DNA of 64,000 nt from Comamonadaceae bacterium (GCA_031414805.1 JANOQJ010000088.1:12882-76881), one strand, 5' to 3'; positions 25,785 through 44,968 are shown, numbered from the stretch's first letter. Numbers and translations: made by a program. The notes: generated from the sequence alone by a model not told the origin.

Positions 25785-25791
25785 TGAGCCA

Positions 25792-25866
25792 GTTTTGCTT
25801 CCTCCCCTCCCCTCCCGGGGGCAGGTGTGGGTCAGGTTGTTCAACTCCCCTGTTCGCTTGACTTGG
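25792..25866 (+). repeat. second repeat module, copy B
   Basis: gttttgcttcctcccctcccctcccggggg...tgttcaactcccctgttcgcttgacttgg. Confidence 0.7.
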
Positions 25867-26053
25867 TTGGCAAGCGACGGCCAGCGGGGTATGCGCTGGA
25901 GAAAATCTTCGCAATCACGCGAATCGGGTTTTGTAGGACTTTGAAGTCCGCGCCGCGCCTTGCTGCGATTTTTCCATCCCACACCCGACTGCCCTGCGTA
26001 ACGGAAATTGTTGGACCGGCGGGGAAACGATCCGGTCGCCGCGTCGATTGGGA

Positions 26054-27172: not shown

Positions 27173-27178
27173 ATGACG

Positions 27179-27772: not shown

Positions 27773-27861
27773 GATCCCTTTTTTGCGTCTCAGGATGTAG
27801 CGTGCTCCTACAGAACCTACGCCAAATCCACTTGCGCGCTTCTTGACAGCATAACCAAAAA

Positions 27862-27877
27862 CTGTATTTGTGTACAG
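27862..27877. promoter_or_regulatory. consensus LexA (SOS) box CTGT-N8-ACAG in the darTG promoter region
   Basis: aaCTGTatttgtgtACAGtt lies about 90 nt upstream of the darT ATG. On the minus strand it overlaps a candidate -35 TGTACA, and a candidate -10 TATGCT begins 9 nt past it (17-nt spacer between the hexamers). Confidence 0.55.
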
Positions 27878-27954
27878 TTGTGGTAGGTGGGCGCCACCGA
27901 CTGTCACAAGCGCGCAAACGAAACACAACCCCCTTGCTCAATCGGGTGCTAAAT

Positions 27955-29084: not shown

Positions 29085-29969
29085 TTACGGTGGGGCTTTT
29101 TGGGGCGACTCTTTCACAAAACCCAGCACCTCGGGCAACACCGGCGCGAGCCAGTTCAAGGGGCTGGCCAGCGAGGCCAGTACTGTGACGTGGTTCACCC
29201 GGTCAAACAACATCACGCGGGTCGTGGCTCCGGCGGCTTGCAGGCGCTGGGCCAGTCCGACGGTGTTGCGCTGCGGGTTCACCAGGCTGTCGCTGTTGGC
29301 TGCCAGCAGCAGGCTCCTTGGGGCGGCGGCCGATACGTGGGTAATGGGCTGGGTATCGGGCTGTGTGTTGGGCCACTCAAACGCCACTTGCACGTCACGG
29401 TTGCCAATCGGCAAAAAGTCGTACGGCCCGGCAATGCCCACCCAACCAGCCAGTTGCGCGGGTTTCAGGCCCACGGGGGCGAGCCAGCGCGGGTCCAGTG
29501 CCAGCATGGCGACGTTGTAAGCCCCGGCGCTGTGACCCACCAAGTGAATGCGCGCAGTGTCGCCACCCAGACGGGCGGCGTTTACAAACACCCATTGCGT
29601 GGCCAGCGCGCCATCTTGCAAAAACGCCGGGTAGCGCACCTGAGGGCTCAATCGGTAGTCCGCCACCAGCACCAGCACGCCGTTACGCGCCAGCGCCTCG
29701 CCCACAAAACGGTACTGCGCCCGCTCGCCGGTGGTCCAACTCCCGCCGTAGAAAAACAGCACGACGGGGTGCCCCGCGCCCACGGAGTTTTGCAAGGGGC
29801 GATAAATATCGAGCTGCTGGCGCGCCTCAGGGCCGTAAGCCACGCCCGGCTCCATGCGATGGCTGTCGCTGGGGACCAGTTTGTCCAGCACGCCGGATGC
29901 GGAGCAGCCCGAAAGCAGAGCGCTGAAAGCGGCGAGCAGGCCGGTGCGACGGGTCATGTGTGTGGGCAT
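29085..29969 (-). CDS. alpha/beta hydrolase lipoprotein (carboxylesterase-like)
   Basis: Lipobox LLSGC. HGGSW-type FYGGSW and nucleophile GHSAGA. Confidence 0.75.
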   Translation of the reverse strand: MPTHMTRRTGLLAAFSALLSGCSASGVLDKLVPSDSHRMEPGVAYGPEARQQLDIYRPLQNSVGAGHPVVLFFYGGSWTTGERAQYRFVGEALARNGVLVLVADYRLSPQVRYPAFLQDGALATQWVFVNAARLGGDTARIHLVGHSAGAYNVAMLALDPRWLAPVGLKPAQLAGWVGIAGPYDFLPIGNRDVQVAFEWPNTQPDTQPITHVSAAAPRSLLLAANSDSLVNPQRNTVGLAQRLQAAGATTRVMLFDRVNHVTVLASLASPLNWLAPVLPEVLGFVKESPQKAPP

Positions 29970-30126
29970 AGAGGATCGATCATGCCGACTCTTTACGTAA
30001 CGGAGCGCCCAGTGGTTTCAAATGGTTCGACATCAAAGGGGCAAGCACAGCTTCCTGAAGGGCGGCAGAGCATTCCGTGCGGCAACATCCGCAGCACCGT
30101 TCCCCGCGGAAACAGGCAGTTTATAG

Positions 30127-30182
30127 AGAAAACAGCCATCAGCCCTTATAGATACTGCTCAAGCAGCTATTATAAACGTAGC
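30127..30182 (-). repeat. structured ~60-nt repeat, intergenic (reverse orientation)
   Basis: aaaacagccatcagcccttatagatactgctcaagcagctattataaacgtagc. Confidence 0.88.
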
Positions 30183-30199
30183 AAAAAGCCTCAGAACTA

Positions 30200-30874
30200 T
30201 TAGCTCTGGGGTTTGAGTTGCCCGGTCAGCTTTTGCAGTTTGGCCAAGTCTTCCGGCGCAGTTTGCGGCTGCAGTAGCTCCGCGCGCCCGTGCAGCCGCC
30301 CATTGGTGTAGTTGCTGATGCTGTTGAGCATGCGGGCGGGGTGCAGATTTGCCTTGGACGCATCTTTTAGAAACACTGCCACAAAATCGTTCCAGATGTC
30401 CAGTCGTTGTCCCGTTGTGAACGACTCCAGCAACGCTGGGTTGTAGCCCGACCGGTTGGCCCAGCCAACCAAGGCCAAACCGGCGTCAGGATAAAACCGC
30501 CAACAATCAACGGGGTACTGGTGAAACTCGCCATTGGACGGCGCATTCAAATAAAAAAGCCCCTCCGGTTTGAGCACCCGCAAGACTTCGTTGAACATCA
30601 ACCAGAAAAACTCAACATGCTCAAAGCACGAACTGCTCACCACCGCATCAAAAGATGCCGACTCAAATGGCAGCTGATACGCATCTTGCAGCACGATGTC
30701 CACGCCACGGCCGGCAACGAAGTCCACACCGACACAGCGGGCAGCTCGGGGCGCTACATCACGCAAAGACCCGTTGACGTTCAGCGCACCAATGTCCAGC
30801 ACCACCCGTTCAGCCTCGTCGTTCAGATAGGTCTGGAAAAACAAGCGTCCGTTGTCGACCGCGGTTGGATGCAT
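30200..30874 (-). CDS. class I SAM-dependent methyltransferase
   Basis: VLDIGA motif I and a FDAVVSSSCFEHV / LKPEGLF pattern. Confidence 0.78.
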   Translation of the reverse strand: MHPTAVDNGRLFFQTYLNDEAERVVLDIGALNVNGSLRDVAPRAARCVGVDFVAGRGVDIVLQDAYQLPFESASFDAVVSSSCFEHVEFFWLMFNEVLRVLKPEGLFYLNAPSNGEFHQYPVDCWRFYPDAGLALVGWANRSGYNPALLESFTTGQRLDIWNDFVAVFLKDASKANLHPARMLNSISNYTNGRLHGRAELLQPQTAPEDLAKLQKLTGQLKPQS

Positions 30875-31035
30875 CTAGGTGGTCCCCTGTTCAAAAAGTC
30901 TGGATGGTTCAAATGGGCTCGGGAATCAGGAATTTTGTTGTTTGTTTCACCCCACAAAGCATTCTTGCGGTCATGGATGCTGTAGTAACTAAGCCTGACG
31001 CAGGGTTATAGTCCAGAGGATTAACCCACAAAACG

Positions 31036-32418
31036 GTGTGCAAAATGTCACAGTTTTCCAAATGCTACTTTCGCCTTGGCTTGGGCGGGTTGGTAGGGCT
31101 TGTTTGTGCGGGCGTATCGGCGCAAACAGGGACTGTTGAACCGTTGGACCGACAAAGCGACGAGGCCTTCCGGCAGGTGTTGCAACAGCCTCAAAACCTC
31201 GGGCTCTGGTCTGCATATGCGCAACTCTTGGTCCAAGCTGGCAACTATGAAGGCGGTATCGCTGCTCTGGACCGCTTGCTGCTGAACCCTGACGCGAATC
31301 CATATCTGCGGGTTGAAATTGCACTGCTGTACTTCCGGTTGGGGTCATACGCACCTGCCGAGGCCATGTTGCGCACAGCGCTTCAAGACCCTCGATTGCA
31401 AGGCGACCAGCGCGCATTTGCAAGCACGTTGATGACTGAGGTGGCCAAGCGCAACCAACGTTCACAACTGAGCGGGTCGGTGGTGCTGGGCTTGCGTAGC
31501 CAGACAAACCCCACGTTTCGCACCAACAGCGCGCAGGTTTTGTCTGCCGGTGTTCTTGGCGCGTTGGCTGCTGACCAAAAACCCGATGCTGATACCGATG
31601 TGAGCCTGGGCTTGCGCGTACAACACCTGTACGACCTGGACCTGCAGAATTCGGCAACCATTTCCACCTCGCTGGGCGCCTATCTGGTGAACTACCGGTC
31701 GTCTGCTGGCAGTCAACTACAAGTCAGCCCGACCAAGCCCTATGACCTGCAAGTCGTTGACGTTTCAACAGGGCTGCAATTCAAACCGTTTCCTTCGTCG
31801 TTTTCTGAACTGACGATGCGCCCGCACATTTTGTTGTCAAACGTCGTCGCGCAAGGCCATCAGTACCTGGGAAATCATGGGGTGGGTATTGATTTCACCT
31901 GGCGGCCTGACGAGCGCACGCTGGTGGACGTCACGCTGGATCGTCAAAGGCGAAACTTTGCTAGCCGCATCGACGTGGTCAATGCGGACCTGCTGGACGG
32001 CCATTTATACGGTGTGCGCTCGCGCATCAGCCGTGAAATGGGCTCGGGACAGGTGCTCACGGGGGAATACGCGACCAAACGCAACCGGGCCAAGCGTGAG
32101 TTCTACAACTACGACTCTCATGAGTTTCGCGTGACTTACTCGATGTCGTACAAGAGCCCGATGGCTGACGCTGGTTACTGGACAACAGCCGTGTGGCTGG
32201 GCGCGCTCAATCGGTCTTACGATGCGCCCGATGCGTCTGTCAGCGCCACCGAAACGCGACGCGACCGTGAGGCGCGCATCGGCATTAGCCATCATGTGCC
32301 ACTCACCGCTTCGTGGTCGTTGCTGTTAACTGCCGAACACTCGCGTAACCAGGCAAACCTGCCTAATTTCCGTTACAAAAACACGTCGCTGTCGGGTGCC
32401 GTGGTGCGTGGCTTCTAA
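31036..32418 (+). CDS. outer-membrane protein: N-terminal TPR region plus C-terminal beta-barrel
   Basis: Signal peptide (LVGLVCAGVSAQT) and about 150 aa of TPR-like helices. These are followed by alternating beta-strand patterns ending in the C-terminal aromatic signal ...GAVVRGF. Confidence 0.65.
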   Translation: MCKMSQFSKCYFRLGLGGLVGLVCAGVSAQTGTVEPLDRQSDEAFRQVLQQPQNLGLWSAYAQLLVQAGNYEGGIAALDRLLLNPDANPYLRVEIALLYFRLGSYAPAEAMLRTALQDPRLQGDQRAFASTLMTEVAKRNQRSQLSGSVVLGLRSQTNPTFRTNSAQVLSAGVLGALAADQKPDADTDVSLGLRVQHLYDLDLQNSATISTSLGAYLVNYRSSAGSQLQVSPTKPYDLQVVDVSTGLQFKPFPSSFSELTMRPHILLSNVVAQGHQYLGNHGVGIDFTWRPDERTLVDVTLDRQRRNFASRIDVVNADLLDGHLYGVRSRISREMGSGQVLTGEYATKRNRAKREFYNYDSHEFRVTYSMSYKSPMADAGYWTTAVWLGALNRSYDAPDASVSATETRRDREARIGISHHVPLTASWSLLLTAEHSRNQANLPNFRYKNTSLSGAVVRGF

Positions 32419-32428
32419 GGAGTAACCC

Positions 32429-33232
32429 ATGAGCCCTCCCATCTCCAAAGACTGGTGGCTGGCTGCCGCCCTGACCAGCGCAGCACTGCCAGCAGCGCTG
32501 GGTCAACCGGCTGCCGGTGAGAATCGTCCTCAAAGTGCCGTTGTCACATCGGCCATAGCCGGTTCACGCACGGCGAACAACACGTCGATCTACATTGATG
32601 GCACCAGTGACCATCGGCTGATCACCGACGCCAAAACAACGATGCACGTACTGTTCTCCGATCAGTCGGCGATCACTTTGGGCCCAAATTCGGAGCTGGT
32701 CATCACGAAATACCAGTTTGATTCGCGGGCCAAAACCGGTCAGCTATTGATCAACATGAGTAAGGGGCTGCTCCGCGTCGTCGGTGGTTTTCTCAGTAAG
32801 AAAAGCGAGACCGTGGTGCGAACAAATACCGCGACCGTGGGCATACGCGGCGGCATTTCCCTGATCGAGAGCGACGACACGCAAACCAACGCCACGTTCC
32901 TTTTCGGGCAACAAATGCGGGTGTCCAGTCTGGACGACACTCAGAATCAGACGGTCACCCGGCCAGGGTTCGGCGTCACAACATCGAGCAATGGGCCATC
33001 AAGCCCGTTCCGCAGGCCGATTGGCGAGATTTCCAGCCAATTGCGGCAGCTGGATCTGACCAACGAGTCAGAACAAGGGTCAACACCTCCCACCGCCCAG
33101 TTGCCGTCTGATGATGTCAACGCGTACGCGCCAGACCGGGTCAATGCAGTTGGGGACGATCCTGACATGGGATTCCAGGCCCCGACGTTGAGAGATGTTC
33201 TGGGCAGCCAGTCGCCCGGCAATCAGTCCTGA
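32429..33232 (+). CDS. secreted FecR-domain protein with a low-complexity C-terminal tail
   Basis: Signal peptide with no lipobox Cys. FecR-like segment MHVLFSDQSAITLGPNSELVI. Starts 10 nt after the OMP gene. Confidence 0.6.
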   Translation: MSPPISKDWWLAAALTSAALPAALGQPAAGENRPQSAVVTSAIAGSRTANNTSIYIDGTSDHRLITDAKTTMHVLFSDQSAITLGPNSELVITKYQFDSRAKTGQLLINMSKGLLRVVGGFLSKKSETVVRTNTATVGIRGGISLIESDDTQTNATFLFGQQMRVSSLDDTQNQTVTRPGFGVTTSSNGPSSPFRRPIGEISSQLRQLDLTNESEQGSTPPTAQLPSDDVNAYAPDRVNAVGDDPDMGFQAPTLRDVLGSQSPGNQS

Positions 33233-33277
33233 GTTCGGTCAGTCGTGCCGTCATCCGTCCAGAGGCTGCGCTGAGCC

Positions 33278-34315
33278 ATGCGCGTCCTGTTTGTCTCCGA
33301 TTACCCGCACTTACCTGACATCAAAGGTGGGCTGCAAACCACCACGCACGATCTATGTCGCGCCATCCAGTTGATGGGGGCAGAAGCCGCCGTTTTGTGC
33401 GGCCTCAGTGAACACCGACCCGCGGATGCAGCGAGTCAGACGATCAGTGATGATTCATTGGGTTACCTGTGCATGCGCGCTGCCTCGCCCGACACGGCGC
33501 TAGCACTTGTTGCTGCAGCGTGGGGCGCTTCGATCGTCGTGGTTCAGAGCGGCATGGCCCTGTCATCCATGGTGCTGGCCAGTTTGCGCACGGGTTGCGC
33601 AACGGCCGTATACCTGCACAATGTGGAGGTACATCAACTGCGCGGCACCCTCATTCCCGACCCATCGCTGTTGTACCTGGCTAATTCGGTATTCACTGCG
33701 CAGCGGTGGCACGCCCTGTGTGGTCTGCGATGCCAGGTTGTCCCCCCGGTCATAGCTGCAGAAAACTACATGGCGGACGGTGGTGTGGGTAGGGGTGAGA
33801 AGGTTTTGTTTGTCAATCCCACGCCTGTCAAGGGTGTGGAAATCATGTTTGCGCTGGCTGCGCACTGCCCTGATGTTTCCTTTCTCGTCGTGGAAAGCTG
33901 GGGTTTGGAGCCAAACTGGCAGCGGCTGTGCCAAATGAGAGCGCGGGCCCTCGGAAATGTGCAGTGGCTTGGCGCGACGGACAACATGCAGGCTGTTTAT
34001 GCACAAGCGCGTTTGCTGCTGATGCCGTCGGTGTGGGAGGAGTCTTTTGGCCGCACAGCTGTGGAAGCCCAGCTCAACGGGATTCCCGTGCTGGCCAGTC
34101 AGCGTGGCGCGCTAGCCGACACCATTGGTGCCGGTGGCATTGCAGTGGATCCGCATGCACCTGTTCTAGCATGGGCGCAGGCCCTGCGTCACTTGCTGGC
34201 CGAGCATGCGCAGTTCAGCGCTGCAGCCCGAGCGCATGCCTTGCAATACACGGCGGCAACACCGCTTGTCGTCGCGCAGTTATTAACCCTGTTGGCAGAG
34301 CATTCCCTGCGATAG
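33278..34315 (+). CDS. glycosyltransferase family 4 (GT-B fold)
   Basis: EX7E motif PSVWEESFGRTAVEAQLNGIPVLAS. Confidence 0.8.
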   Translation: MRVLFVSDYPHLPDIKGGLQTTTHDLCRAIQLMGAEAAVLCGLSEHRPADAASQTISDDSLGYLCMRAASPDTALALVAAAWGASIVVVQSGMALSSMVLASLRTGCATAVYLHNVEVHQLRGTLIPDPSLLYLANSVFTAQRWHALCGLRCQVVPPVIAAENYMADGGVGRGEKVLFVNPTPVKGVEIMFALAAHCPDVSFLVVESWGLEPNWQRLCQMRARALGNVQWLGATDNMQAVYAQARLLLMPSVWEESFGRTAVEAQLNGIPVLASQRGALADTIGAGGIAVDPHAPVLAWAQALRHLLAEHAQFSAAARAHALQYTAATPLVVAQLLTLLAEHSLR

Positions 34316-34319
34316 GCGG

Positions 34320-37300: not shown

Positions 37301-39518
37301 GAACGAGCAAGGGTTTTGCGACACTGCAATCGCGATCGCCAACAACCGTGGTGCCTTGTCAGCGCACCGCGCTGCATTGAGGTCACGCATCAGGGGTTCT
37401 GCCCTGTTGGATGGACGTCGCGTTGCATCGCAAATCGAGCAGATCTGTGCGCAGCTAACGCGCGCCAGCACTGCCATCGCCTTCGCGGCAGATGCGAAGA
37501 CGCGTACAAGAGCGCATGCTCAATGGGCGTTAGACGGTTGGCTGAGCCAACCCCGCTGCATCAGCTTGCCGACTCCGGCGTCGGACGCGACACCGGATCT
37601 ATCGGTTGTGGTGGTGCTTTTCAACCAGGCGGGCCTGTCACGCCGCACCCTGCAGGCTTTGGCAGACCAGCAGGGTGTGCGGTTTGAAACCATTGTTGTC
37701 GACAACGCATCAAGTGACCGCACACCGCAGTTGTTGAATCAATTGCAAGGTGCTCGCATCGTCCGCAACACCGCGAACTTGGGATTTTTGCGTGCTGCCA
37801 ACCAAGGCGCAGAGTTGGCGACGGGGCGCTATTTGGCCTTCCTGAACAGTGACGCCATCTTGCAGGAAGGCGCGTTGGCCGCCGCACTGCAGGCGATTCA
37901 GGCTGACTGCAGGATCGGCGCTTTGGGCGGGCGCGTGGTGCTGACCGACGGTGGGCTGCAGGAAGCCGGAAATGTGATCTTCTGCGACGGCAGTGCAGCA
38001 GGAATTGGGCGCGCAGAAGACCCATTTGGATATGCTGCCCGCGCCGCACGGTCAACTGACTATGTATCGGGCGTTTTTCTCCTGACGCCTGTACCGCTGT
38101 GGCGCAGGTTGGGTGGCTTCGACGAGGCATTTGCTCCTGCTTACTACGAAGACACCGATTACTGCGTGCGCGTGTGGCAAACCGGCATGCGTGTGGTCTA
38201 TGAGCCTGCTGTGTTGCTGGAGCACCTGGAGTGGGGCAGCGCCACCGGTGAAAGTGCCACGCACCTCATGCAGCACAACCGCGAGCTGTTTTGCGAACGC
38301 CACAGTGCCTGGCTGCAAGACCAACCACGGCCCGCAGCGCAGCCGCTGGATGCAGACCCTTGGCGCTCGCCAGAAGACCATCCGCGCCGTCCCCGTGTGC
38401 TGTTTGTCGACAATGAAGTGCCGCATATGTTCAAAGGCGGAGGCCTTCCCAGAGCCCGCTTGATGTTGCAGGCCCTGCGCGATTGGCCGGTAACACTGTT
38501 TCCGTTGTGGGCGCTGCACGACGACTGGCGTGCGGTGTACGCCTCGCTTCCAGGCAGCGTTGAAGTTGCGTTGGGACATGGGATGGCGGGACTCGAAGCT
38601 TTTTTGGAACGGCGGCTAGGTGTCTACGACGTATTGCTGGTCAGTCGGCCGCCCAATCTGCAGGCACTGCAACCGCTACGCACTCGCAGACCCGAGCTGT
38701 TTGCGGGCATGCGCCTGGTGTATGACGCCGAAGCGCTGTTTGCAATGCGTGACATTGCCATGGCCGAGGTACAAGGCAGACCGCTTCCGGTGGCCACTGC
38801 GCAGGCGCGTATCGACTGCGAAGTTGCCCTGGCTGCTGATGCGAGCGATGTGCTCGTCGTGTCCGACGGCGACGCTCGACATTTCCAGGCGGCGGGGCAT
38901 CGCACCCACATCCTGAGCCATGGCATTGCCGTGCGTCGCGGTGTACCCGGGTTGAGCCGTCGCAGTGGGCTGTTGTTCATCGGCGCGCTGCACCCTGGAA
39001 CACCCAACGAGGATGGGCTGCTCTGGTTCATCCGCGAGGTGCTACCGCTGCTGCGCCAGAACACGCCCATCGCACCCAAGTTGTCGGTCGTGGGCGTCTG
39101 CCTGTCCGACAAGGTGGCCGCATTCGCCGGACCTGACATTACCGTGCTGGGTCCGCAGGACTCACTGGAGCCGCATTACGACGCCGCACGCGTGTTTGTT
39201 GCACCCGTGCGTTTCGCTGGCGGTGTGCCCGCCAAAGTGATTGAAGCCGCTGCCAACGGCTTACCCACGGTGGCATCGGCGTTGTTGGTGCAGCAGTTGG
39301 GCTGGCGTGACGGGCTGGATATCGTCGGGGCCCGGGATGCCCTCACATTCGCTTCCGGCATCACACGCTTGTTGGACGATGATGTGGCATGGCAGAACCA
39401 ACAACACGCTGCCTGGCAGCAATGCGCACAGCGCTACGACCCTGAACTGTTTGGCCGCGCCTTGCGTGCCGTGCTCAATGCTACCGATGCCGGTGGATCA
39501 AAGGCTCAACGACCCTGA
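34320..39518 (+). CDS. 1732-aa multidomain protein: TPR array, GT41 (OGT/SPINDLY-like), GT2 and GT1/GT4-like domains
   Basis: The TPR array spans about nt 34320-36000. The GT41-type pattern runs from RIAYVAS to IDVVIDVGG, QLGWLG, DVVLDSFPFNGGLSLLDPLWMGVPVVTLAG (about nt 36420-37460). The GT2 part has VVVVLFNQ, VVDNASSDRT, FLNSDA and YYEDTDYC (about nt 37590-38310). The GT-B part has FVAPVRFAGGVPAKVIEAAANGLPTV (about nt 38385-39515). No TM helices were seen. Confidence 0.8.
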   Translation: MATDTAVHQIATAWQCFAAGNLDDALSLARDAYAASPMHRKVCAALGFFLIQAGLLDDAAAVLQPAIENDPEYAPLHWYNGYLRSRQGDVAGAALAFQCACELDPGLDEAAFALAWALHDLGRTKEALPWASHALTLMRTPARLMQMGWLQQVLGNLELAVQAYREAIAGFDPQAAEQPRLRLHLSQCLVRLGQSAEAALLLRDAVKQWPDNAELRTEAAWREHAQGHFPYALQLARDLVRDHPHRAESWHLLGVLHQDSGDLKAADQAFLEAHQRDLGLTDALVRRARIQREFKQFEGAKWLLGLALQHRANDDAAQDQLAQILLDLQETDEARRLLHRRLRVRPDSADLWRLLAVGQLRKQRPQAAARALRKALSLEPGSVEAQRMLGWLSLEEGELVQAVSIVRHLVARLPHDTAAQVQAAFVLSRAGHLAEAEHWAQKAVAQAPALAEAWRALSHVRLRQGWLSEAEFAVQQALQLVPGQPDSLRHLGWVLLASARLGEAQLAFLRAIEAVPGDPVPKLELGEAQRRAGQFTVALQGVNALLAARPTWQPALLLRARLMVEGGVDGAADTCAQLLRSDVRNADAVKVCLRLTGLGNPRARRLLSMAALDVLRTVWRDAIVEASHTQGQAYLAMLIRAASEDMDTDPWIATAALYANALSPQSTAVGLAVQARDWYRGLKVRSGLAPFAAAPLHRRSDERPRIAYVASQLHQSLLRRVLAAHTADQAQVFLYTCHPFYGLPSHIHLLPLVPETLAESCAANRIDVVIDVGGLHPFEGQFGLLEAYARRLAPVQLGWLGCWGSTGGLFDGLLADDAAIPPQHAVGYEEPVFPLRGGQWCWDPPLAAPDTRPPPSLTHGGTTYGVTARSLKLSEPCLDAFARVVARTPMSTIRFIGRVADDWPLRRQVLACMHAHGVGTGRVFFDPFRPHAAYLEWFGRVDVVLDSFPFNGGLSLLDPLWMGVPVVTLAGSWAGARQGASVLAALGLTGWVAENEQGFCDTAIAIANNRGALSAHRAALRSRIRGSALLDGRRVASQIEQICAQLTRASTAIAFAADAKTRTRAHAQWALDGWLSQPRCISLPTPASDATPDLSVVVVLFNQAGLSRRTLQALADQQGVRFETIVVDNASSDRTPQLLNQLQGARIVRNTANLGFLRAANQGAELATGRYLAFLNSDAILQEGALAAALQAIQADCRIGALGGRVVLTDGGLQEAGNVIFCDGSAAGIGRAEDPFGYAARAARSTDYVSGVFLLTPVPLWRRLGGFDEAFAPAYYEDTDYCVRVWQTGMRVVYEPAVLLEHLEWGSATGESATHLMQHNRELFCERHSAWLQDQPRPAAQPLDADPWRSPEDHPRRPRVLFVDNEVPHMFKGGGLPRARLMLQALRDWPVTLFPLWALHDDWRAVYASLPGSVEVALGHGMAGLEAFLERRLGVYDVLLVSRPPNLQALQPLRTRRPELFAGMRLVYDAEALFAMRDIAMAEVQGRPLPVATAQARIDCEVALAADASDVLVVSDGDARHFQAAGHRTHILSHGIAVRRGVPGLSRRSGLLFIGALHPGTPNEDGLLWFIREVLPLLRQNTPIAPKLSVVGVCLSDKVAAFAGPDITVLGPQDSLEPHYDAARVFVAPVRFAGGVPAKVIEAAANGLPTVASALLVQQLGWRDGLDIVGARDALTFASGITRLLDDDVAWQNQQHAAWQQCAQRYDPELFGRALRAVLNATDAGGSKAQRP

Positions 39519-40450
39519 ACGGGCGCTTCGCTGCTGGCGCGATGAGAGCGCGCAATCACGCAGCTGAAGTGGTGCTCCAAGCGTCCCAATCGATCCCAGT
39601 CGTCTTCCGTATCGATCAACGCCTGCAGCCAGGGCTTGGCCTCGGGCGCATGAAAGTTCTGGGCGACATCGGCCAGCAGCACATGCAGCAGTGAGCCGCC
39701 ATAAGGCCGCTGTGCCACGACCCGAAAGTGCGTTGAGAGCAGCGGCACAATTTGCGATGAATGCACCGCCTCGCTCGGGTCAATCGCCACCACCTCGGCT
39801 ACCGTGGGCGCACGGAAACCTCCCTTGACCATGCCGACTTTGGTGGTGAGCAAACGGTCAGGCAGCAGATCAGCCAGCGCTATGAGCTGCGCGATATTGG
39901 CAGGCGAATACTGGAAACGATCAGGCCCGACGTATTCGTCCAGATAAAACCAGCCTCCTGGTACGAGCAACTGCCTCAGCGCCGAATACAAGCTGCCCAG
40001 CTCTGAGCAATGGTGAACACTTGCGACGCCGATCACGGCATCGAAACTGCCGGGAAGAAAAGGGGCCTGCCCAACCGGTATGTCGTCCATGCTGGCCAGC
40101 ACGTGCTGTATTGACGCGATACCGGACGATGCCTGCGCTGCCACGGCAAGCACTTTAGGCGATAAGTCGAAAGCCACGATCTGTTTTGCCCAGCCCGTGG
40201 CATACAACTCCCGCTCCACATGGCCGGCACCGCAGCCCAGCACCAGCACGCGGCCTAACGGCAAACTGCATGCGGCTGCCAGGTGCTGGCCAAACCAGGC
40301 CAGGGGTGTCACGTCCGGATCGCCGCTGACCCGACGGTTGATCAGTCGCTGGATTTCGTCCAGATGCGCCCACTGCTGGCCATTGGCCACCCAGGTGTCG
40401 GGGTTGCCCCACGCAAGATCCAGCTTGTCCGAGAGGGTGCTCTCAGGCAT
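39506..40450 (-). CDS. class I SAM-dependent methyltransferase
   Basis: VLVLGCGAGH motif I and FDAVIGVASVHH. Start ATG at 40450 (MPESTL). Its 3' end overlaps the convergent giant gene by 13 nt. Confidence 0.75.
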   Translation of the reverse strand: MPESTLSDKLDLAWGNPDTWVANGQQWAHLDEIQRLINRRVSGDPDVTPLAWFGQHLAAACSLPLGRVLVLGCGAGHVERELYATGWAKQIVAFDLSPKVLAVAAQASSGIASIQHVLASMDDIPVGQAPFLPGSFDAVIGVASVHHCSELGSLYSALRQLLVPGGWFYLDEYVGPDRFQYSPANIAQLIALADLLPDRLLTTKVGMVKGGFRAPTVAEVVAIDPSEAVHSSQIVPLLSTHFRVVAQRPYGGSLLHVLLADVAQNFHAPEAKPWLQALIDTEDDWDRLGRLEHHFSCVIARSHRASSEAPVQGR

Positions 40451-41204
40451 CGATTGAATCTTGTCGCGCGGGGCGTTCGCAGACGACCGTGAAGAGCACC
40501 ACCTCCCGGCCACCCTCTGCGGGCTGCGGTTGGCTGTGAAATATCACCCGGGCTTCGGTAAAGCCTAACAAGCCCAAGGCAGAGATAAAAAACTGCGGCG
40601 TGAAATGCCACCAGGTGTGCACCTGCTCCACACCGCGGTGAGGAAGAAAGGCACACGCAGCCTGCTCGCCTAGCGACGCGTTGTAAACCTCAGTTACCAC
40701 GACTGTTTTGCGGGTGCGCAGTGCAACACTTTCCAGCAGATCAAACGGACGTCGGCAATGCAGGAGCACAGCAGCCAGCACGCCGATATCAAATCTGCCA
40801 ATCGCTTCAGGTATTTTGTACGGATCGACTTCAATCATGCGTACCGACGAGTTGAACTCGCGGTGTACATACCAAAACGAGTTGCGCACCCGCTCGATCT
40901 GACGGGCAAAGTCGCGCCGCCACGCGGCCAGGTCAAACCCTTCAAACGGAATCACATCCCACAGATGAGACATGGGTGGCTCAAGGCAGGTCACCGTGGC
41001 ACCCGCGTGCTCCATGTAGAACGACAAAAAGCCGCTGGCCGGACCAACCTCCAGAACCGAACGCCCCGCAAAGTCAACGTGCCCCAGGTAAGCGGCGGTT
41101 TGGGCTCGCAAATCCCATTGCCCCATCACCTCACCGCTGGGTAACGAGAAGGAGTGATAAAAGTCACAGTCTTCACGATTTGGGAAGCGCGGCTGAATAT
41201 GCAT
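40443..41204 (-). CDS. class I SAM-dependent methyltransferase (DUF1698/CmoB-like fold suspected)
   Basis: FYHSFSLPSGEV and VLEVGPASGF motif I. Overlaps the downstream methyltransferase start by 8 nt. Confidence 0.68.
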   Translation of the reverse strand: MHIQPRFPNREDCDFYHSFSLPSGEVMGQWDLRAQTAAYLGHVDFAGRSVLEVGPASGFLSFYMEHAGATVTCLEPPMSHLWDVIPFEGFDLAAWRRDFARQIERVRNSFWYVHREFNSSVRMIEVDPYKIPEAIGRFDIGVLAAVLLHCRRPFDLLESVALRTRKTVVVTEVYNASLGEQAACAFLPHRGVEQVHTWWHFTPQFFISALGLLGFTEARVIFHSQPQPAEGGREVVLFTVVCERPARQDSIDA

Positions 41205-41274
41205 GGGCTTTGAGTGTGGGGACGCGGGACGTCCATGGCAGGAATCCTACAATAGGTTTTCTGTCGGAGTACGC

Positions 41275-42099
41275 ATGGGTTTTCCACCTGGACACTATTA
41301 CTCACCCGTTGTCGATCCTGCAGATTTGCAGCGACGCGACGCGGAAATCTGGGCACCTCGATCCAGTCTGGTGGGGGTAGACATGCAGATCCCCGCGCAA
41401 CTGGAGTTACTGCAACAGCTGGGCCCTCATGTCACAGCGCTGGACTACCCGGTAGAGGCCCCGCCCGAGCCCGACCGTTACTTCTACCAAAACGGTATGT
41501 TTCCCGTGCTGGACGCAGAGTTCCTGTTCGGCGCTCTGTGCCTGTTCAAGCCCCGACGGGTCATCGAGGTCGGTTCGGGTTATTCGTCGCTGGTGATGGC
41601 AGATGCAAACCGGCGCGTTTTTGGCAGCAGCATCGACATCACGTGCATTGAGCCCTACCCGCGTGATTTTCTGGTGAACGGGGTTGCCGGCATCACACGA
41701 CTGGTGCCTTCGCGCCTGGAGACGCTCGATCCCGCGATGTTTGAGCAACTGGCGGCGGGCGACCTGCTGTTCATTGACTCCTCGCATGTTTGCAAAACCG
41801 GCAGTGACGTGAATTTCCTGTTTTTCCAGGTGCTGCCCAGACTGCAACCCGGCGTGTACGTTCACCTGCACGACATTTTTCTTCCCGACGAATACCCCAA
41901 ACCGTGGTTGCTGCAAGAGGGCCGCAGCTGGAACGAGCAATACCTGTTGCACGCCTTCCTGATGCACAACCACCACTGGCGGGTGGTCTGGATGGCGCAT
42001 TACCTGCTAACCCGTCACCCGCAGGCCATCAACTCGGTGTTTCCGCGCTGCCCGATGCTAGGCGGGGGTGGCAGCTTCTGGATGCAGCGGGTGAAGTAG
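41275..42099 (+). CDS. class I SAM-dependent methyltransferase (Methyltransf_24-like)
   Basis: PPGHYYSPV, VIEVGSGYSS and LLFIDSSH motifs. ATG 41275 inside ORF 41203..42099. Confidence 0.7.
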   Translation: MGFPPGHYYSPVVDPADLQRRDAEIWAPRSSLVGVDMQIPAQLELLQQLGPHVTALDYPVEAPPEPDRYFYQNGMFPVLDAEFLFGALCLFKPRRVIEVGSGYSSLVMADANRRVFGSSIDITCIEPYPRDFLVNGVAGITRLVPSRLETLDPAMFEQLAAGDLLFIDSSHVCKTGSDVNFLFFQVLPRLQPGVYVHLHDIFLPDEYPKPWLLQEGRSWNEQYLLHAFLMHNHHWRVVWMAHYLLTRHPQAINSVFPRCPMLGGGGSFWMQRVK

Positions 42100-42116
42100 T
42101 CAGCCTGCTGTGCGCT

Positions 42117-44933: not shown

Positions 44934-44968
44934 GGCGGTGTGCACGGGTTAAGTGAAACGATTGAGTT

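What the first reader, a model, noticed from the sequence alone, without database searches (positions are those of the whole stretch)
29970..42099. ~12-kb glycosylation/methylation/export island splitting the pyk-fba pair
Eight or nine genes sit between fba (with an adjacent esterase) and pyk. They are a SAM methyltransferase, a TPR plus beta-barrel OMP, a secreted FecR-domain protein, a GT4, a 1732-aa triple-glycosyltransferase and three more SAM methyltransferases. There is no flippase, ABC exporter, Wzy/Wzz, sugar-nucleotide synthesis gene or flagellar gene. It therefore matches none of the standard O-antigen, capsule or EPS layouts. The content suggests assembly of a methylated glycan on a protein or envelope target, plus a dedicated outer-membrane component. 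The system is not obviously one I can name.
Basis: partly seen in the sequence, partly recalled or inferred. Interest (0 to 1): 0.7.

Follow-up and report, generated by a model that had tools for sequence, protein, structure and literature searches.

The report
Secretion pore, cargo, giant glycosyltransferase cluster
This conserved eight-gene block pairs a type-11-secretion-like outer-membrane pore and its small secreted partner protein with a giant cytoplasmic enzyme related to protein O-GlcNAc transferases plus sugar methyltransferases, which looks like an undescribed system for making and displaying a methylated glycoprotein.

Summary
Eight genes (30200-42099) lie between esterase-fba and pyk-pgk, with the predicted domains and no flippase, ABC exporter, Wzy/Wzz or flagellar gene.

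The block is a real unit. A four-gene core recurs in the same order: TPR + beta-barrel OMP, FecR-domain protein, GT4, and a giant TPR-GT41-GT2-GT4 protein. It appears in at least 10 genome loci and 49 metagenome loci, at different chromosomal sites. Methyltransferases are variable accessories.

- **OMP.** It is a divergent Slam/DUF560 (type 11 secretion) protein. Orthologs pass the Pfam SlipAM cutoff, and the AlphaFold model shows periplasmic TPRs plus a 14-strand barrel.
- **Distant relatives.** Here the adjacent FecR-domain protein is longer and ends in a TbpB/fHbp/NHBA-type barrel, the hallmark of T11SS cargo, and no glycosyltransferases are present.
- **This subfamily.** The cargo is short, has no barrel and ends in a disordered tail. 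Glycosyltransferases are almost always present.
- **Methyltransferases.** Their fusions to GT domains and to TylF mark them as sugar O-methyltransferases.

Best reading (about 0.45): cytoplasmic OGT-like O-glycosylation, glycan extension and O-methylation of a Sec-exported protein, probably the FecR cargo, followed by surface delivery through the T11SS-like pore. The acceptor and sugars are inferred, not shown. I found no description of this system. It is a new variant of known kinds.

The parts
30200..30874 (-). MT_A: 224-aa class I SAM methyltransferase (Methyltransf_11). It is transcribed divergently from the OMP operon. It is an accessory gene, present in many but not all related loci.
   Evidence: Pfam PF08241, 53 bits. 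Orthologs sit at the same position in L002, L004, L085, L097 and L098. An MT_A-like gene lies next to the MT-GT2-GT4-MT fusion in Variovorax EL159.
31045..32418 (+). Outer-membrane protein, 457 aa. It has a signal peptide (aa 1-27), a periplasmic TPR domain (aa ~34-136), a 14-strand beta-barrel (aa 140-456) and a C-terminal Phe. It is a divergent member of the Slam/DUF560 (type 11 secretion) family.
   Evidence: AF2 model with pLDDT 86: TPR helices plus 14 long strands. Orthologs 60-66% identical pass the Pfam SlipAM gathering score, at 24.6-28.3 bits against a cutoff of 22. NCBI names some of them 'surface lipoprotein assembly modifier' or 'DUF560'. Among distant relatives the only specific families hit are SlipAM and TPR_Slam. 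Foldseek's best barrels are the 14-strand CymA and OmpG, with BcsC and PelBC also listed. The window's own copy does not reach the SlipAM threshold.
32429..33232 (+). FecR-fold secreted protein, 267 aa. The N-terminal signal peptide is near-invariant (MSPPISKDWWLAAALTSAALPAALG|Q). The FecR beta domain spans aa ~50-210. A disordered G/S/T/N/P-rich tail spans aa ~211-267 and carries conserved 'APDRV' and 'TLRxxLG...NQS' motifs with an invariant terminal Ser. It is the candidate T11SS cargo and candidate glycosylation target.
   Evidence: Pfam FecR, 38 bits. AF2 gives pLDDT >90 for aa 50-210 and <50 for aa 1-49 and 212-267. Foldseek top hit is the PupR periplasmic domain 6ovk, E 2e-7, rmsd 3.1 A. 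A FecR-like gene lies directly downstream of the OMP in 37/37 group-A metagenome loci. No C-terminal barrel was detected.
33278..34315 (+). GT4-family glycosyltransferase, 345 aa, soluble. It always lies between the FecR gene and the giant gene. In several relatives it is fused to an MT_C-like methyltransferase, giving a protein of about 627 aa.
   Evidence: Pfam Glyco_trans_1_4 at 56 bits and Glycos_transf_1 at 50 bits. PDB relatives are MshA, PimA and BH4 glucosyltransferase. Present in 26/27 group-A loci. GT4+MT_C fusions occur in L006, L085, L088 and L089.
34320..36239 (+). Giant protein, N-terminal TPR superhelix (aa 1-~640). It is the presumed acceptor-binding module.
   Evidence: Multiple Pfam TPR families. 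PDB match to the human OGT TPR domain, E 9e-35. Conserved across 20 homologs.
36297..37499 (+). Giant protein, GT41 (OGT/SPINDLY-like) catalytic domain, aa ~660-1060.
   Evidence: Pfam PF13844, 54 bits against a cutoff of 25. PDB matches: T. terrenum OGT homolog 5djs E 1e-30 over both lobes, SPINDLY 7y4i E 9e-27, XcOGT E 2e-23, hOGT E 3e-19. His714 is invariant and aligns with the His of the 5djs motif. Lys872 aligns with XcOGT K388, although the family consensus at that position is Arg.
37572..38354 (+). Giant protein, soluble GT2 (GT-A) domain, aa ~1085-1345, carrying the conserved PAYYEDTD motif.
   Evidence: Pfam Glycos_transf_2, 81 bits. No TM helix. Weak NCBIfam rhamnosyltransferase hit. 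The GT2-GT4 didomain is widespread as a stand-alone protein.
38355..39518 (+). Giant protein, C-terminal GT4 (GT-B) domain, aa ~1346-1732.
   Evidence: Pfam Glyco_trans_1_4, 78 bits at aa 1551-1687. Conserved block in alignment A1.
39506..40450 (-). MT_B: 314-aa class I SAM methyltransferase (Methyltransf_11/25/12). It converges on the giant gene.
   Evidence: Pfam. Gene call on L001. An MT_B-like domain forms the C-terminus of the MT24-GT2-GT4-MT fusion in Variovorax EL159.
40443..41204 (-). MT_C: 253-aa divergent methyltransferase (weak Methyltransf_23 hit).
   Evidence: Pfam hit is weak. Homologs are fused to GT4 in L006, L085, L088 and L089, and to a TylF-like domain in Magnetospirillum L010.
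41275..42099 (+). MT_D: 274-aa Methyltransf_24 methyltransferase.
   Evidence: Pfam PF13578, 45 bits. A homolog is fused to a TylF macrocin O-methyltransferase domain (323 bits) in L009. MT24 is fused to GT2-GT4 in L013 and P0077.

Best explanation
The block encodes a self-contained system for making and delivering a methylated glycoprotein.

**Shown or strongly supported**
1. The 457-aa OMP is a divergent Slam/type-11-secretion-family translocon, with periplasmic TPRs and a 14-strand DUF560-type barrel.
2. The gene after it encodes its partner or cargo, a Sec-exported FecR-fold protein. In more distant branches of the same OMP family the adjacent FecR-domain protein carries the canonical T11SS cargo barrel at its C-terminus.
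3. In this branch the cargo has lost that barrel and ends in a disordered tail. The pair is almost invariably joined to a GT4 and a giant soluble TPR-GT41-GT2-GT4 enzyme.
4. The four methyltransferases are glycan O-methyltransferases.

**Inferred**
1. In the cytoplasm, the OGT/SPINDLY-like GT41 module uses its TPR superhelix to bind an unfolded acceptor. It adds the first sugar to Ser/Thr.
2. The acceptor is most likely the Ser/Thr/Gly/Pro-rich disordered part of the FecR-fold protein.
3. The fused GT2 and GT4 domains and the separate GT4 extend this sugar to a short oligosaccharide.
4. The methyltransferases O-methylate it. Related loci hint at deoxyhexose or rhamnose.
5. The modified protein crosses the inner membrane through the housekeeping Sec system. 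The T11SS-like pore then moves it to the cell surface or the medium.
6. No island-encoded inner-membrane component is needed. This explains why none is ever found in the block.
For: **Unit and order**
- OMP-FecR-GT4-giant recurs in the same order in L002, L004, L005, L006, L085, L087, L088 and L089. L086 holds the same four genes with the giant upstream of the OMP, and L009 holds them inverted and divergent from the giant.
- The flanks differ between loci: fba/esterase, manC/FBPase, a pilS-like two-component system, and glmS/glmU-like genes.
- An OMP-led metagenome scan found, in group A, FecR in 37/37 loci, GT4 in 26/27 and a TPR giant in 21/23.
- Two FecR-led look-ups returned the same cluster.

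**OMP as a T11SS-family protein**
- Orthologs score above the SlipAM gathering cutoff.
- Some carry Slam/DUF560 names from NCBI.
- The AF2 model shows TPRs plus a 14-strand barrel. The T11SS literature contrasts 14 strands with 16 for PgaA (PMC8406197).
- In distant relatives only SlipAM and TPR_Slam appear as specific hits.

**FecR protein as cargo**
- In 10 group-B loci the FecR-domain protein next to the OMP is 430-1619 aa long. It ends in a domain that matches Pfam TbpB_B_D (27 bits against a cutoff of 26) and FHBP_C. That domain also matches Neisseria NHBA/GNA2132 at E 1e-6 across its whole length.

**GT coupling is specific to barrel-less cargo**
- Group B has GT4 in 0/14 loci and a giant in 0/15. 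No barrel was found in any group-A locus.

**GT41 domain**
-. His714 is invariant.

**Methyltransferases as sugar O-methyltransferases**
- Fusion proteins MT24-GT2-GT4-MT11, GT4-MT_C and TylF-MT_D / TylF-MT_C.
- RmlD lies inside two variant clusters.

**Topology**
- All GTs and MTs lack TM helices. The OMP and FecR proteins have signal peptides.

**Precedents for soluble multi-domain GT/MT enzymes building methylated glycans**
- WsaE (PMC2943079).
- PBCV-1 A064R and A061L, which build the glycan of a viral capsid protein (PMC9614988).
- Cytoplasmic O-glycosylation before secretion by the TPR-bearing FlmG (PMC7591256 abstract).
Against: - No direct evidence identifies the acceptor.
- N-X-S/T sequons in the FecR protein are not conserved, ranging from 0 to 7 per ortholog.
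- The one well-conserved tail motif of the family (L-[IL]-S-T-G) is degenerate in the window and in its closest relative.
- The window's own OMP copy does not itself reach the SlipAM threshold.
- PF04575 is known to pick up some PgaA polysaccharide porins.
- Foldseek also lists BcsC and PelBC among the top hits.
- The FecR protein lacks the C-terminal barrel that defines all verified T11SS cargo.
- The catalytic-lysine position of GT41 is Arg in most family members. OGT's 'HTT' phosphate-binding motif is 'GLS' here. Activity and donor are therefore uncertain.
- A protein carrying an oligosaccharide would have to pass through SecYEG. To my knowledge this is documented only for mono- or di-hexose and heptose adducts.
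- Some group-A variants replace the GT41 giant with a TPR protein whose C-terminal domain shows no GT41 similarity.
Confidence: 0.45

Rival explanations
1. The block is a polysaccharide export system. The TPR + barrel OMP would be a PgaA/BcsC/PelB-like exopolysaccharide porin. The FecR-fold protein would be a periplasmic adaptor or glycan-binding chaperone. The soluble GTs and methyltransferases would build a methylated polysaccharide, perhaps a methyl-rhamnan or mannan. An inner-membrane transporter encoded elsewhere would carry it across.
For: - TPR + barrel architecture, with Foldseek hits to BcsC (9b8a) and PelBC (9h80) at E ~1e-9.
- PF04575 also captures some PgaA homologs, and the T11SS authors note parallels with EPS porins.
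- The GT2-GT4 didomain is widespread as a stand-alone protein.
- The GT2-GT4 didomain plus methyltransferases resembles WsaE-type polymerising enzymes with methyl caps.
- Pel uses a soluble GT4, PelF (own knowledge).
- manC, RmlD and glmS/GlmU-like genes flank some loci.
Against: - No initiating phosphoglycosyltransferase, flippase, ABC transporter, synthase with TM helices, c-di-GMP receptor or Wzy/Wzz was seen in the annotated neighbourhoods.
- The barrel model has 14 strands, not 16-18.
- The OMP family's distant members pair with bona fide protein cargo bearing TbpB-type barrels and have no GTs.
- The GT41 family is known only for protein acceptors (own knowledge).
Confidence: 0.2
2. The block holds two co-located but mechanistically separate modules. 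A T11SS pore with its FecR-fold cargo acts at the surface. The GT41/GT2/GT4/MT enzymes modify cytoplasmic proteins or make an intracellular methylated glycan, analogous to mycobacterial polymethylated polysaccharides. The modules would be linked only by co-regulation.
For: - A GT2-GT4 + four-methyltransferase module exists on its own in Variovorax sp. EL159. It has no OMP, FecR, GT41 or export genes.
- All the enzymes are soluble.
- Bacterial OGT homologs with intracellular roles have been proposed (own knowledge).
- The acceptor is not identified.
Against: - The coupling is very tight and runs in both directions. Group-A OMP-FecR pairs almost never lack GT4 and the TPR giant. Every giant with readable flanks has OMP-FecR beside it.
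- The short gaps between the four core genes (10, 45 and 4 bp) suggest one operon.
- GT acquisition coincides exactly with loss of the cargo's targeting barrel. Independent functions would not explain that.
Confidence: 0.2
3. The block is a cell-surface signalling device. The FecR-fold protein would sense an event at the OMP, as FecR/PupR do with TonB-dependent transducers. It would relay that event to the cytoplasmic OGT-like enzyme, which would act as a regulator.
For: The FecR domain's closest structures are the periplasmic signalling domains of anti-sigma regulators: PupR 6ovk and BDI_1681.
Against: - The protein has no cytoplasmic anti-sigma domain and no stable TM anchor. Only about 8 residues precede the hydrophobic segment, which is followed by an AxA-type cleavage site.
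- No ECF sigma factor or TonB-dependent transducer is adjacent.
- Three GT domains and four methyltransferases are hard to fit to a signalling role.
Confidence: 0.05

Closest known systems
Type 11 secretion system / Slam (DUF560 OMP plus adjacent Sec-dependent cargo; e.g. Neisseria Slam1-TbpB/fHbp, hemophilin secretors, TepS-Pls)
   Same: - An OMP of about 450-480 aa with N-terminal periplasmic TPRs and a 14-strand barrel.
- Orthologs hit PF04575 and PF24575.
- The cargo gene lies immediately adjacent and carries a signal peptide.
- Distant members of this OMP family have cargo ending in the TbpB/fHbp-type barrel.
   Different: - This clade is very divergent. Most members fall below Pfam detection, and so does the window copy.
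- The cargo effector domain is a FecR fold. That fold is not among the ten cargo architectures catalogued in PMC12282271.
- In this subfamily the cargo has no C-terminal barrel.
- The pair is fixed to a cytoplasmic glycosyltransferase/methyltransferase set, which I found reported for no T11SS locus in the searched papers.
OGT / SPINDLY family (GT41) protein glycosyltransferases, including bacterial homologs XcOGT and Thermobaculum terrenum OGT
   Same: - A long N-terminal TPR superhelix followed by a two-lobed GT-B catalytic domain homologous over both lobes.
- The active-site His is invariant.
- The enzyme is soluble and cytoplasmic.
   Different: - It is fused to two further GT domains (GT2, GT4), implying glycan extension rather than a single sugar.
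- The catalytic Lys position is mostly Arg in the family.
- OGT's HTT motif is replaced by GLS.
- No Asn ladder is evident among the invariant TPR residues.
- It is embedded in a secretion-gene cluster that nominates a substrate.
HMW1ABC / NGT systems of Haemophilus and Actinobacillus (cytoplasmic GT41 glycosylates an adhesin that is then exported by Sec and a dedicated OMP). From own knowledge.
   Same: - The logic is the same: a dedicated OM transporter, a secreted substrate and a cytoplasmic GT41-family enzyme, all in one locus.
- In A. pleuropneumoniae a GT4 extends the first sugar.
   Different: - The GT41 here is the TPR-bearing OGT/SPY type, not the HMW1C/NGT type.
- The transporter is DUF560, not an Omp85/TpsB protein.
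- The candidate substrate is a 267-aa FecR-fold protein, not a large N-X-S/T-rich adhesin.
- Methyltransferases are present.
Soluble multi-domain GT/methyltransferase enzymes: WsaE of Geobacillus stearothermophilus (S-layer glycan) and PBCV-1 A064R + A061L (capsid protein glycan)
   Same: - Several GT domains and O-methyltransferases are fused or adjacent.
- They build methyl-(rhamnose)-terminated glycans without membrane domains.
   Different: - WsaE works on a lipid-linked glycan. That glycan is exported by Wzm/Wzt and transferred by an oligosaccharyltransferase, and none of these is present here.
- No sequence-level orthology was tested.
- Sugar identity here is unknown.
FlmG-type flagellin glycosyltransferases (TPR + GT; cytoplasmic O-glycosylation before export)
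   Same: A TPR module is coupled to a GT, and it modifies a protein that is subsequently secreted unfolded (PMC7591256 abstract).
   Different: - There are no flagellar genes in the window or in related loci.
- The catalytic family differs.
- Export would run through Sec and T11SS, not the flagellar T3SS.
Synthase-dependent EPS exporters (PgaA, BcsC, PelB/PelC)
   Same: TPR + beta-barrel OMP encoded next to glycosyltransferases, with Foldseek similarity.
   Different: - The barrel has 14 strands, not 16.
- There is no membrane synthase, no c-di-GMP receptor and no periplasmic modifying enzyme.
- Sequence affinity is to SlipAM, not to the EPS porin families.

Membership tests
T11SS / Slam (DUF560) outer-membrane translocon | DUF560/SlipAM barrel domain detectable by sequence (PF04575) | tested here: inconclusive
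   The window copy shows no SlipAM hit even at E<=5. Orthologs 60-66% identical (P0139, P0183, P0131) and others score 24.6-28.3 bits against a cutoff of 22, covering profile positions 78-278 of 288. Of 40 distant relatives, 7 hit SlipAM and 3 hit TPR_Slam, and no other specific barrel family appears. This supports membership at the family level but not for the window protein on its own.
T11SS / Slam (DUF560) outer-membrane translocon | N-terminal periplasmic TPR domain plus 14-stranded barrel | tested here: met
   AF2 model with pLDDT 86: helices at aa 34-136 and 14 long strands at aa 140-456. The 14-versus-16 strand criterion comes from PMC8406197.
T11SS / Slam (DUF560) outer-membrane translocon | Adjacent Sec-dependent cargo gene | tested here: met
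   The FecR-fold gene starts 10 bp after the OMP stop. It has a hydrophobic signal-like N-terminus with an AxA-type site, judged by inspection. It is adjacent in 37/37 group-A loci.
T11SS / Slam (DUF560) outer-membrane translocon | Cargo carries a C-terminal TbpB/fHbp-type 8-strand beta-barrel | tested here: not met
   The window protein's C-terminus (aa 212-267) is predicted disordered. The barrel HMM finds nothing in the window or in any group-A locus. The barrel is present in the FecR-domain neighbours of distant (group-B) OMPs.
T11SS / Slam (DUF560) outer-membrane translocon | OMP-dependent secretion or surface exposure of the cargo | not testable with these tools
   This needs genetics and localisation assays.
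GT41 (OGT/SPINDLY) protein glycosyltransferases | TPR array followed by a GT41 catalytic domain homologous over both lobes | tested here: met
   PF13844 at 54 bits against a cutoff of 25. 5djs matches at E 1e-30 over query aa 673-1048. SPINDLY, XcOGT and hOGT also match.
GT41 (OGT/SPINDLY) protein glycosyltransferases | Conserved catalytic-site residues (hOGT His498 and Lys842 equivalents; UDP-binding HTT...D motif) | tested here: inconclusive
   His714 is invariant. Lys872 aligns with XcOGT K388 in the window protein, but the family consensus there is Arg. 'HTT' is 'GLS', and the following Asp (D958) is nearly invariant. Residue roles are taken from own knowledge of OGT.
GT41 (OGT/SPINDLY) protein glycosyltransferases | Transfers a sugar to Ser/Thr (or Asn) of a protein acceptor | not testable with these tools
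   This needs enzymology or glycoproteomics.
FecR/PupR-type anti-sigma regulators | Cytoplasmic anti-sigma domain + TM helix + periplasmic FecR domain, encoded with an ECF sigma factor and a TonB-dependent transducer | tested here: not met
   Only the FecR fold is shared. About 8 residues precede the hydrophobic segment. No ECF sigma factor or TBDT is in the block or in related loci.
Wzx/Wzy-, ABC-transporter- or synthase-dependent polysaccharide loci (O-antigen, capsule, EPS) | Initiating phosphoglycosyltransferase plus flippase/ABC transporter/polymerase, or a membrane-embedded processive GT2 synthase | tested here: not met
   None appears in the Pfam or NCBIfam scans of the block. No TM helices occur in any GT. 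None is adjacent in the annotated related loci.
HMW1ABC-like two-partner glycoadhesin systems | HMW1C/NGT-type GT41 + TpsB (Omp85-family) transporter + large TpsA adhesin | tested here: not met
   The GT41 is the TPR-bearing OGT/SPY type. The OMP is DUF560-like with 14 strands and no POTRA domains. The candidate substrate is only 267 aa.
Flagellin glycosylation islands | Linkage to flagellin or flagellar genes | tested here: not met
   No flagellar genes were seen among the island and flanking ORFs scanned in the window or in the related loci.

The most novel reading that the evidence does not exclude
In this lineage a type 11 secretion pore has swapped the usual protein targeting barrel of its cargo for a cytoplasmically added, methylated O-glycan. 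An OGT-type enzyme glycosylates the disordered tail of the FecR-fold cargo before Sec export. The glycan, or the glycosylated tail, would then be what the Slam-like pore recognises or displays.

If true, this would be the first case of OGT-family protein glycosylation hard-wired to a dedicated Gram-negative secretion system. It would also be the first genetically nominated substrate for a bacterial OGT homolog.
Probability: 0.2. Interest if true: 0.85.

Novelty: new variant of a known kind. Interest (0 to 1): 0.68.

Why it matters
Two open questions become testable with cultured strains that carry the cluster: Polaromonas sp. A23, Rhodoferax saidenbachensis, Methyloversatilis spp., Variovorax sp. 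N23 and Acidovorax spp.

- **What do bacterial OGT/SPINDLY homologs glycosylate?** To my knowledge their substrates are largely unknown. Here the conserved gene context nominates one specific small secreted protein.
- **How do the environmental T11SS clades work?** Most of them are uncharacterised (PMC8406197, PMC12282271). The data reveal a new cargo class, FecR domain plus TbpB-type barrel. They also reveal a derived barrel-less, glycosyltransferase-coupled form.

If the glycoprotein model holds, it adds a new route for surface glycoprotein display in Gram-negative bacteria. The route would be independent of lipid carriers and oligosaccharyltransferases. It would also supply a compact enzyme set, a four-module giant plus sugar O-methyltransferases, for cytoplasmic glycoengineering.

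If the model fails, the tight co-inheritance still demands an explanation.

Tried and rejected
- **Standard O-antigen, capsule or EPS locus.** Rejected. It has no initiating transferase, flippase, ABC transporter, Wzy/Wzz or membrane synthase, and no TM helices in any enzyme.
- **Flagellin or pilin glycosylation island.** No flagellar or pilin genes were found in the window or related loci. A PilS/PilR-like two-component system is adjacent, but only in Methyloversatilis.
- **FecR as an anti-sigma factor.** Rejected. It has no cytoplasmic domain, no ECF sigma factor and no TBDT.
- **Mobile island.** No flanking repeats, tRNA, integrase or transposase were found. The compositional shift is only mild.
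- **N-glycosylation of the FecR protein by an NGT-like activity.** Sequons are enriched in the window copy (7) but not conserved across orthologs (0-7).
- **O-glycosylation of the signal peptide's 'PPIS' motif.** That Ser is absent in several ortholog groups.
- **Regulatory RNA or conserved promoter elements.** There are no Rfam hits and no sigma-70 matches. The divergent intergenic region is poorly conserved.
- **Finding the same locus without the block.** Exact-protein look-ups for fba and pyk returned nothing. The closest relative (L002) has a diverged version of the block at the same fba/esterase flank.
- **PDB sequence searches for donor specificity.** Searches with GT4, GT2-GT4c and MT_D gave no useful information.
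- **Naming the source organism.** This failed.

Full report
**1. What is there**

The flanks are all on the minus strand:
- On one side, fba (27955-29019) and a lipobox-bearing alpha/beta-hydrolase esterase (29085-29969).
- On the other, pyk (42117-43583) and pgk (43731-44945).

Eight genes lie between them:

| Gene | Coordinates | Strand | Size | Call |
|---|---|---|---|---|
| MT_A | 30200-30874 | - | 224 aa | Methyltransf_11 |
| OMP | 31045-32418 | + | 457 aa | TPR + beta-barrel |
| FecR-domain protein | 32429-33232 | + | 267 aa | FecR |
| GT4 | 33278-34315 | + | 345 aa | GT4 |
| Giant protein | 34320-39518 | + | 1732 aa | TPR, GT41, GT2, GT4 |
| MT_B | 39506-40450 | - | 314 aa | Methyltransf_11/25/12 |
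| MT_C | 40443-41204 | - | 253 aa | weak Methyltransf_23 |
| MT_D | 41275-42099 | + | 274 aa | Methyltransf_24 |

The four plus-strand core genes are separated by only 10, 45 and 4 bp, which suggests one operon.

The giant protein has these parts:
- About 600 aa of TPRs.
- A GT41 domain (aa ~660-1060).
- A soluble GT2 domain (aa ~1085-1345).
- A GT4 domain (aa ~1346-1732).

None of the glycosyltransferases or methyltransferases has a TM helix. Only the OMP and the FecR protein have signal-peptide-like N-termini.

An independent Logan assembly contains the identical block with the same gene calls. Strikingly, that 12,037-bp contig begins and ends within about 80 bp of the block's boundaries.

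**2. It is a conserved unit**

I looked up homologs of the giant protein and read their neighbourhoods. I then re-scanned all loci with my own HMMs. The same core, OMP - FecR - GT4 - giant, appears in all of these:
- An unnamed close relative (L002).
- Polaromonas sp. A23 (L004).
- Methyloversatilis thermotolerans (L085) and M. discipulorum (L089).
- Variovorax sp. N23 (L088).
- A Betaproteobacteria MAG (L006) and an Alphaproteobacteria MAG (L009).
- Two soil metagenome lineages at 38-43% identity (L086, L087).

The chromosomal neighbours differ from locus to locus: fba/esterase, manC and FBPase, a PilS-like two-component system, and glmS/GlmU-like genes. Two look-ups that started from FecR homologs returned the same cluster.

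I also ran an OMP-led scan of metagenome contigs, scored with HMMs. It gave 49 'group A' loci with an OMP HMM score of at least 300. Counting only loci with enough flanking sequence:

| Feature | Group A | Group B |
|---|---|---|
| FecR-like gene directly downstream of the OMP | 37/37 | 12/17 |
| GT4 | 26/27 | 0/14 |
| Giant-like TPR protein | 21/23 | 0/15 |

The methyltransferases vary in number and arrangement. Relatives carry an extra Methyltransf_24 gene right after the giant gene, which the window lacks at 39454-39521.

The closest relative (L002) compares with the window as follows:

| Region | Protein identity | Nucleotide identity |
|---|---|---|
| fba | 97% | 89.6% (fba + esterase) |
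| Esterase | 94% | 89.6% (fba + esterase) |
| Block | 62-84% | 72-77% |

L002's other flank is a gamma-glutamyltranspeptidase gene, not pyk. The block therefore sits at a conserved flank but diverges faster than its neighbours. An insertion event as such is not demonstrated. There are no repeats, tRNAs or mobility genes.

**3. The outer-membrane protein is a divergent T11SS/Slam-family translocon**

- The window copy alone gives only TPR hits plus a weak DUF6268 hit.
- Orthologs 60-66% identical to it pass the Pfam gathering score for SlipAM/DUF560. They score 24.6-28.3 bits against a cutoff of 22, covering most of the barrel profile.
- NCBI already labels some of them 'surface lipoprotein assembly modifier' or 'DUF560'.
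- An AlphaFold2 model built on 43 homologs (pLDDT 86) shows TPR helices at aa 34-136 followed by 14 long strands. The T11SS literature uses 14 versus 16 strands to separate T11SS proteins from PgaA-type polysaccharide porins (PMC8406197).
- The PDB holds no Slam structure. Foldseek returns the 14-strand CymA and OmpG, and also the TPR-porins BcsC and PelBC, all at low TM-scores. Structure search alone therefore does not decide the question.
- An exhaustive profile search finds 2323 representative relatives, 468 of them at E<=1e-30. Of 40 distant ones, 7 hit SlipAM and 3 hit TPR_Slam, and no other specific barrel family appears.

**4. The FecR-fold protein belongs to the cargo lineage of this OMP family**

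Its model has a confident beta-rich core at aa 50-210. The closest structures are the periplasmic domains of PupR (6ovk, E 2e-7, rmsd 3.1 A) and a Bacteroidetes anti-sigma factor. Residues 1-49 and 212-267 are disordered.

It is not an anti-sigma factor. It has no cytoplasmic domain, and no ECF sigma factor or TonB-dependent transducer is nearby.

The decisive observation comes from the 31 'group B' loci, whose OMPs are 26-30% identical to the window's.
- The gene after the OMP again encodes an N-terminal FecR domain in 12/17 loci.
- These proteins are 430-1619 aa long.
- In 10 loci they end in a shared domain of about 130 aa.
- That domain matches Pfam TbpB_B_D (27 bits against a cutoff of 26; 3 of 10 members) and FHBP_C (2 of 10).
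- As a profile it matches Neisseria NHBA/GNA2132 at E 1e-6 across the whole domain, and fHbp weakly.
- This is the 8-strand barrel that unifies known and predicted T11SS cargo (PMC12282271).
- FecR-domain cargo is not among the ten architectures listed in that paper.

**5. The glycosyltransferases correlate with loss of the cargo barrel**

- Group B has barrels and no GTs: GT4 in 0/14 loci and a giant in 0/15.
- Group A, including the window, has no barrel in any locus. There the FecR protein is short, about 260-330 aa.
- Its tail is disordered and rich in Gly, Ser, Thr, Asn and Pro. It carries conserved 'APDRV' and 'TLRxxLG...NQS' motifs and an invariant terminal Ser.
- In group A the GT genes are almost always present.

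This mutually exclusive pattern is the strongest argument that the secretion pair and the enzymes work on the same object.

**6. The enzymes**

*GT41 domain.* It is homologous over both lobes to the T. terrenum OGT homolog (E 1e-30), to Arabidopsis SPINDLY (E 9e-27), to XcOGT and to human OGT.
- His714 is invariant across 20 homologs and aligns with the His of the 5djs motif.
- Lys872 aligns with XcOGT K388 (= hOGT K842, from own knowledge). Most family members have Arg at that position.
- OGT's 'HTT' motif reads 'GLS'.
- Activity is therefore plausible, but the donor cannot be predicted.

*Methyltransferases.* Fusion proteins in related loci tie them to the glycan:
- Variovorax sp. EL159 encodes a 1626-aa MT24-GT2-GT4-MT11 fusion, with MT_C-, MT24- and MT_A-like genes beside it.
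- GT4 and MT_C are fused into one protein of about 627 aa in L006, L085, L088 and L089.
- In L009 an MT_D homolog is fused to a TylF macrocin O-methyltransferase domain (323 bits). In Magnetospirillum L010 an MT_C homolog is fused to a TylF-like domain.
- RmlD-like genes lie inside the L009 and L122-type clusters. The GT2 domain has a weak rhamnosyltransferase hit. These hint at 6-deoxyhexose in some lineages. manC and glmS/GlmU-like neighbours occur in others.

*Documented analogues* of soluble multi-domain GT/MT enzymes that build methyl-capped glycans:
- WsaE (PMC2943079).
- PBCV-1 A064R and A061L, which act on a protein-linked glycan (PMC9614988).

**7. Mechanism proposed**

Shown:
- Gene content, order and co-inheritance.
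- Family and fold assignments.
- The topology of the products: enzymes cytoplasmic, two proteins exported.
- The barrel-versus-GT dichotomy.

Inferred:
1. The TPR-GT41 module O-glycosylates an unfolded acceptor in the cytoplasm. The best candidate is the FecR-fold pre-protein's disordered segments.
2. GT2, GT4c and the separate GT4 extend the glycan.
3. The methyltransferases O-methylate it.
4. Sec exports the protein.
5. The T11SS-like pore moves it to the surface or the medium.

This model is attractive because it is the only one for which the conserved gene set is complete. Housekeeping Sec supplies the inner-membrane step.

I put it at about 0.45 overall. Sub-claims:

| Sub-claim | Confidence |
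|---|---|
| OMP belongs to the T11SS family | ~0.85 |
| FecR protein is its partner or cargo | ~0.75 |
| Methyltransferases are sugar O-methyltransferases | ~0.8 |
| Giant is a protein glycosyltransferase | ~0.6 |
| The acceptor is the FecR protein | ~0.35 |

**8. Rivals**

*(a) Polysaccharide export through a PgaA/BcsC/PelB-like porin, about 0.2.*
- For: the architecture, the Foldseek hits, and the known leakage of PF04575 onto PgaA.
- Against: the 14-strand model, the absence of any carrier or inner-membrane export genes in every locus examined, the protein-cargo relatives, and the GT41 domain.

*(b) Two co-located but separate modules, about 0.2.*
- For: the stand-alone GT2-GT4 + methyltransferase module of Variovorax EL159.
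- Against: the two-way co-inheritance and the barrel/GT dichotomy.

*(c) A cell-surface signalling device, about 0.05.*

**9. Weak points**

- The window's own OMP does not reach the SlipAM cutoff.
- No verified T11SS cargo lacks the barrel.
- Candidate glycosylation motifs are not universally conserved.
- The family's best tail motif (L-[IL]-S-T-G) is degenerate in the window and in L002.
- Passage of oligosaccharide-bearing chains through SecYEG is undocumented beyond small adducts (own knowledge).
- In the L116-L125 variants the TPR protein has a C-terminal domain of about 330 aa with no detectable GT41 similarity.

**10. Novelty**

Four full-text searches found no description of this cluster. 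The T11SS papers analyse only sequence clusters 1 and 3 and only speculate about cargo glycosylation.

The components are known kinds. New here are their fixed combination, the FecR-type cargo class and the barrel-less GT-coupled form. The rating is therefore 'new variant of a known kind', with interest about 0.68.

Noticed in passing
window 26054-27928 (-): A DarT (PF14487, 108 bits) / macro-domain DarG-like toxin-antitoxin pair lies immediately beyond fba, in the lowest-GC stretch of the window (0.53). Relative to the close relative L002 it is an insertion. L002 positions 2943-3218 match window 25720-25994, and then fba follows after about 520 bp.
   Followed up: partly
L140, L143, L149, L155, L160, L163, L165-L168 (metagenome loci): This looks like an uncatalogued T11SS cargo architecture. 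It has a signal peptide, an N-terminal FecR domain, a variable middle and a C-terminal TbpB/fHbp/NHBA-type barrel (430-1619 aa overall). It is always encoded right after a divergent DUF560-like OMP, with no glycosyltransferases nearby.
   Followed up: yes
window 32429-32506 (FecR N-terminus) and alignment A6: The signal peptide of the FecR-fold protein is nearly invariant (M-[ST]-P-P-I-S-K-D-W-W-L-A-A-A-L...) among orthologs that are only 40-50% identical overall. Its n-region has no net positive charge. Group-B cargo have ordinary Lys/Arg-rich signal peptides. The reason is unknown.
   Followed up: partly
window 39454-39521: Relatives (L002, L004, L085, L088, L089) carry an extra ~284-aa Methyltransf_24 gene between the giant gene and MT_B. 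The window lacks it. Here the giant's stop overlaps the MT_B stop by 13 bp.
   Followed up: yes
L001 (Logan contig SRR20217188_766642, 12,037 bp) = window ~30144-42180: An independent assembly contig is identical to the block and breaks within about 80 bp of both boundaries. This hints that the junctions are assembly-graph branch points, meaning strain-level presence/absence or allelic variation in that sample.
   Followed up: no
L013 8087-12967 (Variovorax sp. EL159): A 1626-aa fusion protein, Methyltransf_24 - GT2 - GT4 - Methyltransf_11, has three further methyltransferase genes beside it. It has no OMP, FecR, GT41 or transport genes. It is a stand-alone cytoplasmic 'methyl-glycan' module of unknown product.
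   Followed up: partly
L117, L122, L123 (and L116, L118, L119, L124, L125): This is a variant of the core. In place of the GT41-GT2-GT4 giant there is a 1090-1170-aa TPR protein. Its last ~330 aa match no Pfam family or PDB sequence. An RmlD-like gene follows it. glmS and GlmU-like genes flank the cluster.
   Followed up: partly
L088 2044-3699 and L006 3920-5578: A ~551-aa protein with a hydrophobic, TM-like N-terminus and no Pfam match lies directly upstream of the OMP in Variovorax sp. N23 and a Betaproteobacteria MAG. The two copies are 69.5% identical. It has no counterpart in the window. It could be an optional inner-membrane component.
   Followed up: no
giant protein aa 872 (window ~36933-36935) and alignment A1: The position that aligns with the catalytic Lys of OGT (XcOGT K388) is Lys in the window protein but Arg in the family consensus.
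   Followed up: partly
window 29085-29969 (-): The esterase next to fba has a lipoprotein signal (…LLSGC). It stays with fba in L002 at 94% identity. It does not accompany the block elsewhere, so it is not part of the system.
   Followed up: yes
L085 3451-5055 and L089 6454-8070: In both Methyloversatilis species a PilS-like 6TM histidine kinase and a sigma-54 activator are transcribed divergently from the OMP operon. They may regulate it in that genus.
   Followed up: no
window 18894-20768 (-): A 624-aa ORF with coding-like GC3 (0.69) has no Pfam match at E<=1e-6.
   Followed up: no
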